A DNA stretch of 64,000 nucleotides from Alphaproteobacteria bacterium. GTDB lineage: Bacteria; Pseudomonadota; Alphaproteobacteria; MPNO01. Below the pieces are notes generated by a model. It was not told where the DNA came from. It saw only the letters and a list, made by a program, of their open reading frames with translations, and made no database searches. The DNA is taken from contig OZ219865.1 of the NCBI GenBank assembly GCA_964291675.2, forward strand, positions 800,001 to 864,000. The letters run 5' to 3'. Position numbers and translations under genes: made by a program. Every line of letters starts with the position of its first letter. Within the stretch, counting starts at the first letter, position 1. Shown here piece after piece: positions 14,096-54,155 of the stretch.

Positions 14096-14270
14096 CCGTC
14101 CCTCTCCTTGTGGCGCAGGCGACTATCGCGCAATGCGCCGCCTCGCGCCATGCCGTTTGCGCCGTCCTTCGATAGGGGCTTATCCAGATTACTTGACGAG
14201 CTGTCGGATGGCGCGGATCGACGAGGGGACCGCCGCCGGTCGTGGTCGACGCCCTACCTGCCCTCATGTC

Positions 14271-14517
14271 GTCATGCCCGGACTTGATCCGGGCATCCAT
14301 GGGCGGTGCATGGCGAGCCGGGTGCGGACCGCCCCATCGGCATCCTTCCAGCCGGACCGCCGTGCGCGCGGATGCCGCATGGATGGCCGGATCAAGTCCG
14401 GCCATGACGGGGTGGTGGCGGTGGAGGAGCAAGCAGAGCCGGGTGCGGCCCGCGTCGAAAATCCAGACCGGACAGCAGTGGATCACCCCCGGACTTGATC
14501 CGGGGGCCGGCCATGAC
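14271..14517. repeat. REP-like palindrome cluster, family A
   Basis: GTCATGCCCGGACTTGATCCGGGCATCCAT (14271-14300), inverted copy 14379-14408, nested variant 14479-14517. Confidence 0.9.
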
Positions 14518-14562
14518 GTGGAGGGAGCGGTGGAAGGGGATGGGATTCTTGGATACGGCGCG

Positions 14563-15795
14563 CTAGCCGACAACGCCGGCGGCGCGCAGCTCCGCGATCT
14601 CGGCGTCGTCGCAGCCCAAGAGCTCGCTCAGCACCTCCTCGCTGTGCTCGCCGAGCAGCGGCGGCGGCAGGCGGATCCCGGCGGGCGTGGCCGACAGCCG
14701 GAGCGGGCTCGCGATCAGCCTGGCCGGCGCGCCGCCGGATGCCTTGTGCTCCACCTCGGCCACCATGCCGCGCGCCTGAACGTGCGGATCGTCGAACACC
14801 TGGTCGAGCCGGTTGATCGGCCCGCAGCCGATCCCCGCCTCCTCCAGCGCGGCCAGCCAGTCGGCGCTCGCCCTGGCGGCGAAGACCGGGCGCAGCTCGG
14901 CGATGCACGCCTCGCGGTTGCGCACCCTGGCGTCGTTGGTGGCGAAGCGCGCGTCGCCGGCGAGGTCCTCCCTGTCCACCATGCCGCAGAACCGGCGGAA
15001 CTGCCCGTCATTGCCGATCGCCACCACGATATAGCCATCGGCGGTGGCGAAGACCTGGTAGGGCACGATATTGGGATGCGCGTTGCCCAGCCGGCCGAGA
15101 TCGCCCGAATAGAGGTAGTTCATGCCGGCATTGACCAGCCAGGCGACCTGGGTGTCCAGCATGCCGATGTCGATGTACTGGCCCTCGCCGGTCAGCGCGG
15201 CGTGGCGCAGCGCGGCGTTCACGGCAACGGCGGCGAACATGCCCGACATGATGTCGGCGATCGGCACGCCCACCTTCTGCGGCTCGCCGTCGGGCTCGCC
15301 GGTGATCGACATGATTCCGCCCATCGCCTGGACCAGGAAATCGTAGCCCGGCCGCTCGGCATAGGGGCCGGTCTGCCCGAACCCGGTGATCGAGCAATAG
15401 ACCAGGCGCGGGTTGGCGTCCCGCAGGTCCTCGTAGCCGAGCCCGTAGCGCGCGAGATTGCCGGTCTTGAAGTTCTCGACCAGCGCGTCCGCCCCGGCGG
15501 CCAGCCGGCGCAGGATGGCCTGACCCTCGGGCTTCGAGACGTCGAGCGCCAGCGAGCGCTTGTTGCGGTTGGCGCTCATGAAATAGGCGCTCTCCGCGGT
15601 GTCGTGGCCGTCCGCGTCCTTCAGGAAGGGCGGCGCGAATTTGCGCGTGTCGTCGCCCGAGCCCGGGCGTTCGATCTTGATCACGTCCGCGCCCAGATCG
15701 CCGAGGATCTGCGTGCAATAGGGCCCGGCGAGCACGCGGGTGAGGTCGACCACCCGCACCCCGGCCAGCGGGCCTCCGTTCCGGCTCATCGGCAC
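14563..15795 (-). CDS. CaiB/BaiF family III CoA transferase
   Basis: [43 protein letters not shown]. Confidence 0.93.
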
Positions 15796-15849
15796 CTCCC
15801 GAAGCTGGCGTCTATCTAGAGCATATGGGGTGCGGGCGGAACCGTCGGC

Positions 15850-16150
15850 CGTCCTTCGATACGCGCCCTGCGGGCGCTACTCAGGATGAGGGTGGGGGTG
15901 TGCACGGCCAACAACCCTCCTCATCCTGAGTAGGCGCGAAGCGCCGTATCGAAGGACGCCCCCTGCGGGCGCTGCTCAGGATGAGGGTGGGGGTGTGCAC
16001 GGCCAACAACCCTCCTCATCCTGAGTAGGCGCGAAGCGCCGTATCGAAGGACGCCCCCCTGCGGGCGCTACTCAGGATGAGGGTTGGCGGTGGGCAGCCC
16101 AAGACCTTCCCCTCATCCTGAGTAGCGGCGAAGCCGCGTATCGAGGGACG
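15850..16150. repeat. Tandem BIME-like array of family B palindromes (three ~95-bp units)
   Basis: Repeated CTACTCAGGATGAGG / CCTCATCCTGAGTAG..GTATCGAAGGACG units; first two spacers identical. Confidence 0.9.
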
Positions 16151-16152
16151 GC

Positions 16153-17061
16153 TCAATCGCTGTCGAAATCGCTGGCGAAGGTGGCGGCGAGGCGGTCGGC
16201 GAAGCGGGCGGCGGCGACCGGGAGGACGCGGCCGCGCAGCTGGCCCATGAACAGCAGGCTGGGCGGGATGTCGCGCGGGTCGACCGGCGGGCTCGCGAGG
16301 TCGGGCCGCGCGGCCGCCCCGGGGATGCCGACCGGGATCTGGAACGAGACCATGTCACCCGAGGCGGCGTAGCCGAGCAGGAACTCGTAGCTGTCCGACT
16401 CGACCGCCGGCACGAGCTGGGCGCCGGTCGTCGAGGCGACGCTCTCCAGCAGGAAGCGCAGCCCGTCGGGCGCGGCCGGCAGGGCGAGCGGGTAGCTGAG
16501 GCATTCGCCGAGCCGGACGGTCTCGCGCTCTGCCAGCGGATGGTCCCGCGCCATCACGCAATGGACCGGCTGGCGGATCGTGGTGACGGTATGGAAGTCG
16601 GCGAGGCGCGGCGGCTCGAAGATCAGCGCGATGTCGGCGGCGTATTCGGCCAGCGCCCGTTCCGCCGATTCGCGGTCGCGCACCAGGGCGTTGAAGGTGA
16701 CCGCCGGATGCTCGGCGCGGTAGGCCTCGATCTCGCGCGGCAGGAAATGCGGCATCAGGGCCTGGGCACAGGCGATCGCGACATGGCCCCGCCGCACCCC
16801 GGAGATGTCGGCGATCTGCGAGCGCACCCGCGCCATGTCGGACATCTGGTTGCGGATGTGGTGCAGCAGGATCTCGCCGGCGGTGTTGAGCCGGACGCCG
16901 CGCGGCAGGCGTTCGAAGATCGGCACGCCGAGCTCGTCCTCCAGCGAGAGGATGCGGCGGTTGAGCGCCGAGGCGGTGATCGACAGCACGTCCGCGGCGC
17001 GGCGGATCGAGCCCGCCCTGGCGACTTCCTCGACATAGCGGAGCGGTGTCAGGTGTCGCAT
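16153..17061 (-). CDS. LysR family transcriptional regulator
   Basis: GSIRRAADVLSITASALNRRILSLEDELGVPIFER..LNTAGE HTH; start trimmed to MRHLTPLRY. Confidence 0.93.
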   Translation of the reverse strand: MRHLTPLRYVEEVARAGSIRRAADVLSITASALNRRILSLEDELGVPIFERLPRGVRLNTAGEILLHHIRNQMSDMARVRSQIADISGVRRGHVAIACAQALMPHFLPREIEAYRAEHPAVTFNALVRDRESAERALAEYAADIALIFEPPRLADFHTVTTIRQPVHCVMARDHPLAERETVRLGECLSYPLALPAAPDGLRFLLESVASTTGAQLVPAVESDSYEFLLGYAASGDMVSFQIPVGIPGAAARPDLASPPVDPRDIPPSLLFMGQLRGRVLPVAAARFADRLAATFASDFDSD

Positions 17062-17172
17062 CGTCGCATCCCCGAACGTTCGAATTATTGCACCGGTCTG
17101 TTGAGAAACTAGCAGCGGATCGCGACAGTTGGCAAAGCTAGATTGCGCTGGCGTCGGCCTGCGCATCGACGA

Positions 17173-17325
17173 GGAAGCGGAGAGTTTGGGGCTCGACCGG
17201 GTCGAGCTCGGCATCGCGGCCCAAGCCGAGCCCGGACAGGGCTCGCAAACGATCCGAGAGATCCCGCGGGCACTCGGCCGTCCGGCCCCGCTGCCAGTCG
17301 TGCGGTGGCCGGGCGGCCTTTTTTT
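17173..17325 (+). ncRNA. Candidate structured small RNA divergent from LysR
   Basis: Several stacked helices, no credible ORF, ends in an intrinsic terminator; family not recognised. Confidence 0.4.
17276..17325 (+). terminator. Rho-independent terminator
   Basis: GGCCGTCCGGCC-CCGC..GCGG-T-GGCCGGGCGGCC followed by T7. Confidence 0.8.
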
Positions 17326-17336
17326 CGCGGGATCGC

Positions 17337-17428
17337 CGTCCCTCGATACGGCGCTTCGCGCCTACTCGGGATGGGATTTCTTCATTTTCCTCATCCTGAG
17401 TAGCGGCGAAGCCGCGTATCGAAGGACG
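17337..17428. repeat. Family B palindrome pair
   Basis: CGTCCCTCGATACG..CTACTCGGGATG / CCTCATCCTGAGTAG..GTATCGAAGGACG. Confidence 0.88.
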
Positions 17429-29110: not shown

Positions 29111-29330
29111 AACGGAGGGGCAGGGACGGCAAGTGCGGGCGTGCGGCGATCCGTGTCCCGATCCGGCGGATGCGCCGATATCCCGCCCGGAACAAGGCTT
29201 TGCGCCCCGTCCAGCGCATCTAAACCGTCATGGTCTCGGCGGTGCTGAGCCACCCCGTGGCATGAAACTCGGGGCGTTCGGCTGAGGGTTTGCCGATCGT
29301 CGCGCGGGTCTGCCGTGGCAGGATGGGAAT

Positions 29331-29514
29331 GGTGGAGGCGGCGACGCGTGAGCGTTCCGTTTATCGGTGATGTGGTTCCCGAGATATAAACTGCTTCCGG
29401 CGGTCGGCTCCGCACCCCGTACTGTGCCCGGCCCGCGGCCGTGGACGCGCGGCAAATCGAACCGCACCCGCTCGACGGGTGCGTGTCCTTCCGACCGCTG
29501 TCCCCGCCTCCACC
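29331..29514 (+). ncRNA. Candidate IS110 bridge RNA in the left non-coding end
   Basis: 11-bp closing helix 29331-29341/29504-29514, inner helices 29400-29407/29491-29498 and 29463-29470/29476-29483; ~184 nt, upstream of the recombinase. Confidence 0.6.
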
Positions 29515-29575
29515 GTGGCGATGCCACGGCGCGATCCTACGCCGCCGTGGCGAGAGCGCAACGAGGAGGACAGCG

Positions 29576-30826
29576 ATGAAGACGGAAGGCTTGCACGTCG
29601 TGCGGCCGCGCGCGGCGGGTCTGGACGTGCACAAGATGGAGATCACCGCGACGGTTCGCCTGTGCGAGGGCGAGGGCGAGCCGGTGGTGGAGACGCGCTG
29701 CTTCAGCTCGCTTCCGAGCGGTCTGGCGGAGATGGTCGCCTGGCTGACCGGTCGCCGCGTCGAGGCCGCTGTCATGGAAGGGACCGGGATCTACTGGCAG
29801 GCGCCCTTCGCGGCGGTGGAGGCGGCGGGGATCGAAGCGATCCTGGTGCACGCGCGTCAGGTCAAGCAGTTGAAGGGGCGCAAGACCGATGTCGCCGACA
29901 GCGTGTGGCTGGCCTGCGTGTGCCAGTTCGGGCTCTGCACGCCTTCCCATGTTCCCCCCGAGCCGTTCCGGGAGCTGCGCTCGCTGAGCCGCCAGCGGCG
30001 TACCCTGGTCAGGCAGCGCTCGACCGTGCGCAACCGGGTGCAGAAGATCGTCGACCGCGCCGGCCTGCGCATCGGCGGCATCCTCTCCGACGTCTTCGGC
30101 GTCAACGGCCGCAAGATCCTCGACGGGCTGGCGCAAGCCACGCCGCGCGCGGTCATCCTCGCCTCGCTCACCGGCCACGTCGCCAACAAGCTGGAGGGGC
30201 TCGGCGAGGCGCTCTCCCTGAGCCTGGGCGACAACGACCGCTTCATGCTCGGCGATCTGCTGGACGAGCATGACGCGCTCGAGGCGCGCATCGCGTCCTA
30301 CGGCGAGAAGATCGACCGGCAGATGACGCCGTGGCAGGAACAGCTCCGCCTGCTGACCACCATCCCCGGCATCGACCGCATCGCCGCCTCGACCATCCTG
30401 ATCGAGATCGGCCCGGATATCGAGGCGTTCGCCTCCAAGCAGCACTTCGCCGCCTGGGCCGGGCTCTGCCCCGGCAACAACGAAAGCGGCGGAAAGCGCC
30501 GCAACGCGCGCACCCGAAGGGGCTCCAAGACGCTGCGCGCCAGCCTCGTCGAATGTGCCCACGGCGCGGCCCGAACCAAGGGGTGCCAGTTCGAGGCCCA
30601 CCACCGCGCGCTCGCCGCCCGGCGCGGATACAAGCGCGCCATCGTGGCCAGCGCACACAAGATGCTGCGCATCGTTTATGTCGTGCTCAAGACCGGCAGG
30701 CCCTACTACGACCGCACCGCCGACTACGACGCGCTGATGGTCAAGCGCAACGCCCCGCGCTGGATCCGAATGCTCCGCCGCTACGGCTACATCCAACCCC
30801 GGCGCGCCGAACCCAAGGCCACCTGA
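29576..30826 (+). CDS. IS110 family DEDD recombinase/transposase
   Basis: GLDVHK, MEGTG, KTDVAD (DEDD), TIPGI, GLCPGNNESGGK (catalytic Ser), KRAIVASAHK; GAGGAGG SD. Confidence 0.96.
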   Translation: MKTEGLHVVRPRAAGLDVHKMEITATVRLCEGEGEPVVETRCFSSLPSGLAEMVAWLTGRRVEAAVMEGTGIYWQAPFAAVEAAGIEAILVHARQVKQLKGRKTDVADSVWLACVCQFGLCTPSHVPPEPFRELRSLSRQRRTLVRQRSTVRNRVQKIVDRAGLRIGGILSDVFGVNGRKILDGLAQATPRAVILASLTGHVANKLEGLGEALSLSLGDNDRFMLGDLLDEHDALEARIASYGEKIDRQMTPWQEQLRLLTTIPGIDRIAASTILIEIGPDIEAFASKQHFAAWAGLCPGNNESGGKRRNARTRRGSKTLRASLVECAHGAARTKGCQFEAHHRALAARRGYKRAIVASAHKMLRIVYVVLKTGRPYYDRTADYDALMVKRNAPRWIRMLRRYGYIQPRRAEPKAT

Positions 30827-30996
30827 CCGGCCCGCATAACGCCGGACCGCCGCGCGGGACCGCTTCGGGCCACATCGGGGAAGTCCACCGCTCGTCTCGC
30901 CGCCCCCTTCCGGCGATCTCAGCCAACTCCCTCCCGGCGTTGGATGGGGCCCTCGCGCGCCCCCACCGAAACTGTTTCACGGCAACCGGACAGCAG

Positions 30997-31220
30997 TGGA
31001 TCGAGTCCGGGCATGACGATGGGGGGAGGCATGGCGCTGGGGCGGGCCGCGCCCGGCTCTCCATGCTCCTGCTCCTCCACCGCCACCACCACCCCGTCAT
31101 GGCCGGACTTGATCCGGCCATCCATGCGGCGTCTTCGCCTGCGAGGCGGCCGGGCGGGAGGGGCGGCGCCAGTGGGTGCCCGGATCACCCCCGGACTTGA
31201 TCCGGGGGCCGGGGCATGAC
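30997..31220. repeat. Family A palindrome cluster right of the IS
   Basis: Units at 30997-31017, 31096-31125 and nested 31173-31220. Confidence 0.88.
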
Positions 31221-54043: not shown

Positions 54044-54155
54044 CGTCCTTCGATACGCCCGCCTCCGGCGGGCTACTCAGGATGAGGAGGGGTTGGTTGG
54101 CCGCAAGAGAAATCTCCTCATCCCGAGTAGCCCCGCAGGGGCGTATCGAGGGACG
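54044..54155. repeat. Family B palindrome pair
   Basis: CGTCCTTCGATACG..CTACTCAGGATGAGG / CCTCATCCCGAGTAG..GTATCGAGGGACG. Confidence 0.88.

What the first reader, a model, noticed from the sequence alone, without database searches (positions are those of the whole stretch)
29331..29514. IS110 bridge-RNA candidate whose putative guides spell the end of a resident genomic repeat
Seen: the ~350-nt left end holds an ~184-nt folded domain. One hairpin (CGCACCCG/CGGGTGCG) is flanked 5' by CAAATCGAA (29453-29461) and 3' by TGTCCTT (29484-29490). Read as left guide (same sense) and right guide (reverse complement) around an AA core, they give ATCG-AA-GGAC(A). This matches the family-B repeat end CGTATCGAAGGACG (four + strand copies: 15946, 16041, 17416, 31334), allowing one G-U wobble and two distal mismatches. 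Nearby GCGCGGCAA (29447-29455) and GACGGGT (29474-29480) resemble the predicted circle junction TCACGGC-AA-CCGTC, but they overlap the first fold. Known: IS110 elements encode bridge RNAs in non-coding ends, and IS621 targets REPs. Inference: a repeat-targeting programmable recombinase with an AA core and a multi-branch RNA fold unlike IS621. Caveat: this copy's own site (GCATCTAAA|CCGGAC) fits those guides only imperfectly.
Basis: partly seen in the sequence, partly recalled or inferred. Interest (0 to 1): 0.8.

Follow-up and report, generated by a model that had tools for sequence, protein, structure and literature searches.

The report
IS110 bridge RNA, guides relocated

Summary
Window 29224-30985 is one of 8 copies of an IS110-family insertion sequence. 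The 184-nt domain 29331-29514 is a conserved, covariation-supported RNA that behaves like a bridge RNA.

- The left-target guide is AUAU-AA(-AC) at 29384-29391. It tracks the left flank in 21 guide variants (z 10.7).
- A right-target guide, UCCGUUU at 29356-29362, lies on the other side of the same internal loop (z 5.1; 3.3 at clade level).
- CGGCAAAUCG at 29450-29459 copies the right end of the element, so it is the donor guide.
Its "right guide" TGTCCTT relates to no flank.

Family-B repeats (266 in the genome) carry no copy. All 8 copies sit at ATAT/ACAT/ATCT-AA|(A)CCGGAC of another, REP-like repeat. All 5 perfect sites are occupied (Fisher p 3.5e-7).

The AA core and the multi-branch fold hold. 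The order of the two target guides mirrors what is printed for IS621. No right-donor guide was found, and no transcript is shown.

The parts
29224..30985 (+). IS110-family insertion sequence, 1762 nt, counting one copy of the AA core at its right end. A second core copy lies at 29222-29223.
   Evidence: Eight full copies in the genome share exactly this stretch, and their flanks diverge or belong to repeats.
29218..29223 (+). Left target: ATCT plus core AA. In this copy there is one mismatch to the guide AUAU.
   Evidence: Five other copies have ATAT-AA and two have ACAT-AA.
29224..29575 (+). Non-coding left end. It starts ACCGTCATGG, the right-donor flank (RD).
   Evidence: AAAC-NNN-CATGG and CCACCCCG..CATGAAA are conserved among relatives.
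29331..29514 (+). Bridge-RNA domain, closed by P1 (29331-29344 with 29501-29514).
   Evidence: The covariance model finds it in 102 places. 92.3% of cells are paired, and 30 of 50 pairs change on both sides.
29350..29396 (+). Target-binding arm. P2 is 29350-54 with 29392-96. P3 is a hairpin, 29365-70 with 29377-81. An internal loop lies between them.
   Evidence: The pair at alignment columns 22:76 shows UA 18, GC 14, AU 4, CG 1.
29356..29362 (+). Right-target guide UCCGUUU, on the 5' side of the loop. It pairs with the top strand AAACCGGA in 6 of 7 positions.
   Evidence: Permutation z 5.1 and 3.3 at clade level. Antiparallel diagonal. The columns are hypervariable.
29384..29391 (+). Left-target guide AUAU plus core AA, then AC, on the 3' side of the loop. 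It has the same sense as the top strand.
   Evidence: LT positions -1 to -4 are identical in 0.97, 0.94, 0.93 and 0.73 of 21 guide variants, against 0.27-0.39 shuffled. z 10.7.
29398..29500 (+). Donor-binding arm, a three-way junction. P4 is 29398-29407 with 29491-29500. P5 is 29424-29446. P6 is 29463-29483.
   Evidence: In P4, 8 of 10 pairs change on both sides; in P6, 6 of 8. P5 is nearly invariant.
29450..29459 (+). Left-donor guide CGGC-AA-AUCG. It has the same sense as the right end plus the left-end start, CGGC-AA-ACCG (one U-G).
   Evidence: the 4 nt before the core are identical in 17 of 18 distinct guide-donor pairs, CAGC with CAGC 4 times and CGGC with CGGC 13 times. z 4.4.
29484..29490 (+). 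It is variable and its role is unknown.
   Evidence: no relation to any flank.
29576..30826 (+). Transposase or recombinase gene, 416 aa, preceded by GAGGAGGA at 29563-29570.
   Evidence: PF01548 at 2.3e-22, PF02371 at 3.6e-23. (IS621 and ISCro4 chains, E about 1e-14).
30827..30985 (+). Right end. It finishes TTTCACGGC (left-donor flank) plus core AA at 30984-30985.
30986..31010 (+). Right target, CCGGACAGCAGTGG... It is the 5' arm of a CCGGAC-N13-GTCCGG palindrome of the REP-like repeat.

Best explanation
The window holds one of eight copies of an IS110-family insertion sequence (29224-30985). Its 352-nt left end encodes a bridge RNA at 29331-29514, which tells the DEDD/serine recombinase (29576-30826) where to insert.

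**Fold.** An outer helix P1 closes two arms.
- Arm 1 (P2, internal loop, P3) is the target-binding loop.
  - Two further letters, AC at 29390-29391, equal the first two letters of the element's own left end.
- Arm 2 (P4, P5, P6) is the donor-binding junction. [quoted passage not shown]

**Preferred target.** The target is ATAT-AA-(A)CCGGA. It lies just 5' of the stem of a REP-like repeat.

**What is shown.** The copies and their boundaries, the RNA structure, and the co-variation of three guide segments with the left target flank, the right target flank and the left donor flank.

**What is inferred from IS621.** That the stretch acts as RNA bound to the recombinase, that the element moves through a circle, and how the strands are exchanged.
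For: **The element.** Pfam finds both IS110 domains. The catalytic motifs align with ISCro4 and IS621 chains. There are eight copies with identical ends, and the junctions share AA(A)C.

**The structure.**
- On 18 relatives, 90.5% of cells are paired against 84.0% shuffled. The covariation score is 0.231 against 0.126 (0 of 500 shuffles) and 0.04-0.09 when the partners are slid.
- On 39 distinct RNAs, 92.3% are paired and 30 of 50 pairs change on both sides.

**Left-target guide.**
- There are 21 variants.
- 47 of 80 non-tandem copies match it perfectly over LT4 plus core. 27 have one mismatch and 6 have more.
- z is 10.7 and 6.2 with one entry per clade.

**Right-target guide.** z is 5.1 and 3.3. 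The same-sense control is flat.

**Donor guide.** 17 of 18 distinct pairs agree. The G/A switch follows the right end.

**Own genome.** Among 116 sites that hold the right half of the repeat, sites with ATAT-AA are 5 occupied and 0 empty. Sites with one mismatch are 3 occupied and 24 empty. The rest are 0 occupied and 84 empty. Fisher p is 3.5e-7.

**Variability.** The guide columns are hypervariable and lie between invariant ones.
Against: - No transcript, RNA end or RNP is shown. RNA-library contigs that carry relatives may be DNA carry-over and give no ends.
- No sigma-70-like promoter was found.
- No guide for the right donor flank was found.
- In this element's own RNA the right-target pairing is imperfect: 6 of 7, with an internal U-C.
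- The 99% relative L031 has one more change there, which fits the shared repeat worse.
- One type (L114/L116) has 2 mismatches in LT4.
- The types are related, so the permutation figures overstate independence. The clade-level test has only 12-13 entries.
- Alignment A3 was fitted to the model's structure.
- Rfam gives no match.
Confidence: 0.8

Rival explanations
1. The segments flanking the CGCACCCG hairpin (CAAATCGAA and TGTCCTT) are the left and right target guides, and the element is aimed at the end of the family-B repeat (ATCG-AA-GGAC).
For: The letters exist and resemble the family-B end if a wobble and two mismatches are allowed. TGTCCTT is variable among relatives.
Against: - None of the 266 family-B motifs in the genome carries a copy. 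All 8 left ends and all 9 right ends abut the other repeat.
- Across about 32 RNA types the 3' flank shows no relation to the right target (z -0.3), the left target, or either donor flank.
- CAAATCGAA overlaps CGGCAAA, which copies the element's right end in 17 of 18 pairs.
- Family B differs from the real left guide at the two positions next to the core.
Confidence: 0.03
2. The matching segments act as DNA, not RNA. In this reading they are internal copies of target and end sequences, read by the recombinase or used in DNA-DNA pairing, and the conserved fold is a by-product or a leader of the transposase mRNA.
For: No transcript is demonstrated, and no promoter was found.
Against: - The segments lie in single-stranded loops of helices that keep pairing through compensatory changes. 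That is selection on an RNA fold.
- The layout (target loop, donor loop, shared core) is that of bridge RNAs shown to be RNA in IS621 and ISEc21 (passages of PMC11208160; abstract of PMC11187229).
Confidence: 0.07
3. The domain is only a regulatory 5' leader of the transposase gene (translation or stability control). Target choice would then come from protein recognition of the REP-like hairpin.
For: The target lies next to a palindrome. 72 other ATATAA sites in the genome are empty, so more than the left guide matters.
Against: The left-flank letters change in step with the loop letters in 21 variants, including near-identical RNAs with different targets. A protein-only model does not predict that.
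Confidence: 0.05

Closest known systems
IS621 / ISEc21 / ISPpu10 bridge RNA (seekRNA) systems of the IS110 group
   Same: - DEDD plus Ser recombinase.
- The RNA is encoded in the longer left end, upstream of the gene.
- One loop reads both strands of the target around a shared dinucleotide, and another reads the joined ends.
- The target is a REP-like repeat next to a stem.
(Passages of PMC11208160; passages of the ISPpu10 preprint 10.64898/2026.03.19.712850.)
   Different: - The protein is 416 aa and only distantly alike (E about 1e-14 to the IS621 chain).
- The core is AA, not CT.
- An outer helix closes both arms.
- The donor arm is a three-way junction.
- In the target loop the bottom-strand (left) guide is on the 3' side and the top-strand (right) guide on the 5' side. 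This is the reverse of what the IS621 paper states.
- Only 4 left-flank letters are read.
- The two letters beyond the core on the left guide follow the donor.
IS1111-group seekRNAs (ISEc11, ISPa11, ISKpn4)
   Same: The order of the two target matches: the top-strand complement comes first, then the bottom-strand complement (abstract and passages of PMC11187229). Donor-binding letters lie in a multi-loop (passage of PMC11208160).
   Different: In the IS1111 group the RNA lies downstream of the gene in a long right end, and the elements have 7-17-bp subterminal inverted repeats. Here the long non-coding end is the left one (352 against 159 nt). The longest inverted match between the ends is 5 nt, no better than shuffles.
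IS110 / IS900-like elements of actinomycetes (about 400-aa transposases)
   Same: The closest annotated relatives in the plasmid collection are 'IS110 family transposase' genes of Alicyclobacillus, Streptomyces, Rhodococcus and Burkholderiales, at 36-43% identity over more than 88% of the length.
   Different: No named IS is closer than 43%. The link to IS110 and IS900 themselves is recalled, not tested here.

Membership tests
IS110-family insertion sequence | Transposase with DEDD_Tnp_IS110 (RuvC-like) and Transposase_20 domains | tested here: met
   PF01548 at 2.3e-22 (residues 14-161) and PF02371 at 3.6e-23 (residues 258-342).
IS110-family insertion sequence | Catalytic D, E, D, D and Ser | tested here: met
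   alignments: GLDVHK with GIDVSK, MEGTG with MEATS, KTDVADS with KTDAVDA, and NESGG with YESGS. D17, E68, D105 and D108 are invariant and S304 nearly so in 13 relatives. The IS621 residue numbers come from a passage of PMC11208158.
IS110-family insertion sequence | Site-specific insertion, no terminal inverted repeats, and a short core shared by target and joined ends | tested here: met
   All eight copies lie at one kind of site, and AA is shared at both junctions. There is no inverted repeat beyond chance.
Bridge RNA (IS110 group) | Encoded in the longer non-coding end upstream of the recombinase gene | tested here: met
   The left end is 352 nt and the right end 159 nt.
Bridge RNA (IS110 group) | Conserved secondary structure with two binding loops | tested here: met
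   The arms are P2/P3 and P4/P5/P6.
Bridge RNA (IS110 group) | Loop letters co-vary with the left and right target flanks on opposite strands | tested here: met
   Left guide z 10.7 and 6.2; right guide z 5.1 and 3.3. The strand controls are flat.
Bridge RNA (IS110 group) | Loop letters match the left donor flank plus core | tested here: met
   17 of 18 pairs; z 4.4.
Bridge RNA (IS110 group) | A guide for the right donor flank | tested here: inconclusive
   Searches found none. RD is nearly invariant except for 3 letters, so co-variation has little power.
Bridge RNA (IS110 group) | [quoted passage not shown] | tested here: not met
   In the target loop the order is reversed. The IS621 statement was read as a passage.
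Bridge RNA (IS110 group) | Expressed as RNA and bound by the recombinase | not testable with these tools
   Only contigs of RNA libraries that carry relatives were available. These are not proof.
IS1111 group | RNA in a long right end, and subterminal inverted repeats of 7-17 bp | tested here: not met

The most novel reading that the evidence does not exclude
This clade would be a third layout of IS110-family guide RNAs. It is encoded upstream, like IS621, but its target loop has the IS1111-type order. Its long guide reads the bottom strand through the core and two letters into the donor, a 'handshake' on the opposite guide and strand from IS621. If so, the target sits in the synaptic complex turned by 180 degrees relative to the donor, or the bottom strand is exchanged first. 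The clade could then be a link between the IS110 and IS1111 groups.
Probability: 0.3. Interest if true: 0.6.

Novelty: new variant of a known kind. Interest (0 to 1): 0.42.

Why it matters
It turns a plausible but wrong guide assignment into a tested one, so the element's target can now be predicted: N4-AA-N5, here ATAT-AA-ACCGGA.

It shows natural reprogramming. Near-identical RNAs with different loop letters sit at different sites.

The mirrored target loop, the AA core and the short guides (about 4 + 2 + 5 letters) add to the known range of bridge-RNA designs. That range bears on how the IS110 and IS1111 layouts are related, and on the choice of scaffolds for programmable recombinases.

Bridge RNAs in IS110 elements, and REP targeting, are already established. 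The gain is therefore one of detail, not of principle.

Tried and rejected
- **Rfam** (E up to 10): seven weak matches to unrelated families, all far below their gathering scores.
- **Promoter scan**: no sigma-70-like site. The one terminator-like site in the domain is the P6 hairpin read on the - strand.
- **Nested model.** I first read the RNA with the left guide lying between P1 and P4. I dropped this when RNAalifold and the pair counts showed P2.
- **GACGG (29474-78) as right-donor guide.** Rejected. Relatives with RD ACAGTC keep GGCGG there.
- **Alternative pairing of CGCACCCC (29413-20) with the P6 3' strand.** It is not kept in the L081 and L087 clades (by eye).
- **Right-donor guide.** I searched by longest match and column by column. 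Only scattered clade-level hits came back.
- **Subterminal inverted repeats:** none.
- **Class-wide protein search**: 0 of 400 other genomes at E <= 1e-80, so it added no relatives.
- **Metagenome scan**: only 15 loci.
- **Sequencing runs**:
  - Contigs of three RNA libraries from two studies carry relatives of the left end and the gene.
  - They show neither ends nor strand, and DNA carry-over is not excluded, so I do not count them as evidence of transcription.
  - Parts without cover mean nothing.
- **Papers.**
  - I saw no figures or supplementary files. The published surveys (six structures in PMC11208160; 86 models in preprint 10.64898/2026.10.21.760802, section 8 read) may already hold this RNA or its mirrored loop.
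  - My two full-text searches and the passages I read do not mention it.

Full report
**What is there.** The ORF at 29576-30826 (416 aa, with GAGGAGGA six bases upstream) carries both IS110 domains. It aligns with the solved ISCro4 and IS621 recombinases at E about 1e-14, and the D, E, D, D and Ser motifs lie in register.

A search of the window's own genome (4.8 Mb, 2 contigs) with 29150-31050 finds eight full copies at 99-100% identity. Dozens of separate matches hit the first 78 and the last 65 bases of the query, which means the flanks are themselves dispersed repeats.

Aligning the copies fixes the ends. On the left they read ...CAT(A/C)T-AA|ACCGTCATGG. On the right they read TTTCACGGC-AA|(A)CCGGACAGCAGTGGA. 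The element is therefore 29224-30985. The shared core is AA, the left end is 352 nt and the right end 159 nt. There are no subterminal inverted repeats beyond chance.

**The observation.** The 184-nt domain folds better than any of 200 shuffles, z -3.44. The family-B motif is real and strongly over-represented: 10 matches with up to 1 mismatch in the window against 0.03 expected, and 266 in the genome.

**Relatives.** A scan of one genome per species gave 106 relatives, of which 79 loci were kept, at 59-99% protein identity. They come from MAGs of Alphaproteobacteria, Vicinamibacterales, Pseudomonadales and others. A metagenome scan added 15 loci. A sample of 400 other genomes of the same class had none at E <= 1e-80.

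Read side by side, the left ends are strikingly alike from GGYGGAGGCGG to CCGCCTYCRCC.

**Structure.** I propose six helices.
- P1 closes the domain.
- P2 and P3 form one arm with an internal loop.
- P4, P5 and P6 form a three-way junction.

| Alignment | Cells paired | Shuffled | Covariation score | Shuffled | Slid controls |
|---|---|---|---|---|---|
| 18 types | 90.5% | 84.0% | 0.231 | 0.126 (0 of 500) | 0.04-0.09 |
| 39 distinct RNAs | 92.3% | 82.3% | 0.301 | 0.136 (0 of 500) | 0.04-0.08 |

A covariance model built from the 18-type alignment finds the RNA in 102 places in 100 sources. The 39-RNA alignment made from those hits is fitted to the model. On it, 30 of 50 pairs change on both sides, and one P2 pair shows all four Watson-Crick types. 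P5 is almost invariant, so it says nothing either way.

**Guides.** The 3' side of the arm-1 loop (29382-29391, AGAUAUAAAC) ends in an invariant AAAC, or AATC in one type. Four hypervariable letters precede it. These four letters equal the four letters left of the core in the flank.
- Identity by position, -1 to -4, is 0.97, 0.94, 0.93 and 0.73 over 21 guide variants, against 0.27-0.39 for shuffled pairings. Position -5 shows none.
- Of 80 copies with a readable, non-tandem left junction, 47 match LT4 plus core perfectly. 27 have one mismatch and 6 have more.
- Fifteen tandem or self-junction copies were set aside before counting.

The 5' side of the same loop (29355-29364) is complementary to the right flank. 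Clear cases are CCGCAU with A|TGCGG, GAAGGU with A|CCTTC, GUCUU with AAGAC, and GCGGU with ACCGC. One search shows an antiparallel diagonal running from guide positions 3-8 to RT +1 to +5.

Permutation of cognate against non-cognate pairings gives these figures:

| Comparison | z | Shuffles as high |
|---|---|---|
| Left guide vs left flank, same sense | 10.7 | 0 of 1000 |
| 5' side vs right flank, antisense | 5.1 | 0 of 1000 |
| Donor segment vs right end, same sense | 4.4 | 0 of 1000 |
| Left guide, one entry per 88%-identity RNA cluster (13 usable clusters) | 6.2 | 0 of 2000 |
| 5' side, one entry per cluster (12 usable clusters) | 3.3 | 0 of 2000 |

The strand controls for these three pairings lie between -1.5 and +0.2. 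There are 17 clusters in all. Related types are still not fully independent.

The donor segment CGGCAAAUCG (29450-29459) equals the right end plus the left-end start, CGGC-AA-ACCG with one U-G. Its G/A switch follows the right end: CAGC with CAGC 4 times, CGGC with CGGC 13 times, and one mismatch, over 18 distinct pairs.

CAAATCGAA overlaps the tail of this donor segment. TGTCCTT is the junction strand between P6 and P4. It varies among relatives but shows no relation to any of the four flanks in either sense, z between -0.9 and 1.1. The hairpin between them is P6, the distal hairpin of the donor arm.

**The target in this genome.** None of the 266 family-B motifs carries a copy. There are 116 sites with the right half of the other repeat (CCGGACAGCAGTGGA, up to 2 mismatches). 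Eight of these follow a right end of the IS, and the other 108 are empty.

| Left letters at the site | Occupied | Empty |
|---|---|---|
| Equal to the guide (ATAT-AA) | 5 | 0 |
| One mismatch | 3 (including the window's copy, ATCT) | 24 |
| Two or more mismatches, or no AA | 0 | 84 |

Fisher p is 3.5e-7. The element has therefore filled every perfect site.

Of the 87 ATATAA sites in the genome, 72 lie outside this repeat and are empty, so the right side matters too. That right side is the 5' arm of a CCGGAC-N13-GTCCGG palindrome, as with the REP targets of IS621 and ISPpu10 (passages read).

An empty paralogue, GCGCATCTAA-CCGGACAG, has two A's. This explains why three copies have GGCAA|CCGG and five have GGCAA|ACCGG, and it fixes the core as AA with RD beginning AC.

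**Pairing model for the commonest target, CTCATAT-AA-ACCGGACAG.** A84-C91 pairs with the bottom strand over 8 contiguous positions. U56-U62 pairs with the top strand AAACCGGA in 6 of 7 positions, with an internal U-C.

[quoted passage not shown] Here the target loop is the mirror image.

The seekRNA paper reports that IS1111-type RNAs have the top-strand complement first, and the IS110-type ISEc21 the reverse (abstract and passages). This element has the IS110-type place for its RNA but the IS1111-type order.

In IS621 the handshake letters lie 3' of the top-strand guides and pair with the non-cognate DNA (passages). Here the two letters after the core on the bottom-strand guide equal the first two letters of the donor's left end in 75 of 75 copies. 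They equal those of the target in only 18 of 75. Only one type (TC in place of AC) shows a change, so this is co-conservation with a single co-variation.

Multi-loop donor binding is described for IS1111 elements (passage). A 2026 preprint reports 86 bridge-RNA models, many unlike IS621 (section 8). I could see no figures or supplements, so this layout may already be on record.

**What is missing.**
- A guide for the right donor flank.
- A promoter. A conserved -10-like box (CAGGAT, GAGAAT or CACAAT) lies 5-8 nt before P1, but this was not tested.
- Any proof of transcription. Contigs of three RNA libraries from two studies carry relatives of the left end and gene, but DNA carry-over is not excluded.

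**Verdict.** The element is a genuine bridge-RNA-bearing IS110-family element. Its guide positions and its proposed target are wrong. The element is a structural variant of a known kind of system and of moderate interest.

Noticed in passing
G000:C2:1939756-1939964 (locus L006/L009): One genomic copy is followed by a second, partial right end that starts at the letters of window 30840. This fits an insertion into a target-like site, GCATAA|CGCCGGACC, inside another copy's right end, followed by collapse of the two copies.
   Followed up: partly
L008 (G000:C1, right end): There is a 15-nt tandem duplication, AAACTGTTTCACGGC, at the very end of one copy.
   Followed up: no
L037-L079, L097, L109 (one MAG, 91% relative): This MAG has about 40 copies with one guide, GACA-AA. 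Their right flanks are nearly random, with A or G as the first base. At least 8 are head-to-tail IS-IS junctions, CACGGCAAA(A)CAGTCATGG. This points to low right-side specificity and tandem insertion next to an existing copy.
   Followed up: partly
window 29150-29223 and 30986-31050; 116 sites genome-wide: The target repeat is modular. A constant right half with the CCGGAC-N13-GTCCGG palindrome is joined to several different left halves (GAAGGCTAAA 29 times, AAAATCTAAA 11 times, CTCATCCAAA 7 times, and others). Only the ATAT-like left halves carry the IS.
   Followed up: partly
window 29224-29330: The first 100 nt of the left end keep AAAC-NNN-CATGG, CCACCCCG-N3-6-CATGAAA and a -10-like box just before P1 in all relatives. 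This could be a promoter, a 5' stem-loop or a protein site.
   Followed up: no
window 29515-29562: A hairpin-rich spacer of 32-48 nt lies between P1 and the ribosome-binding site. It is absent in several relatives (L034 and the L081 clade) and in an RNA-library contig (joint 29512 to 29545).
   Followed up: no
window 14163-17428, 31333, 54044-54155: The family-B repeat motif CGTATCGAAGGACG occurs 10 times in the window and 266 times in the genome, on both strands. Its nature was not studied.
   Followed up: no
L005 (G000:C1 copy): One own-genome copy differs in the junction strand, TGTCTTT in place of TGTCCTT. It is the only RNA difference among the 8 copies.
   Followed up: no
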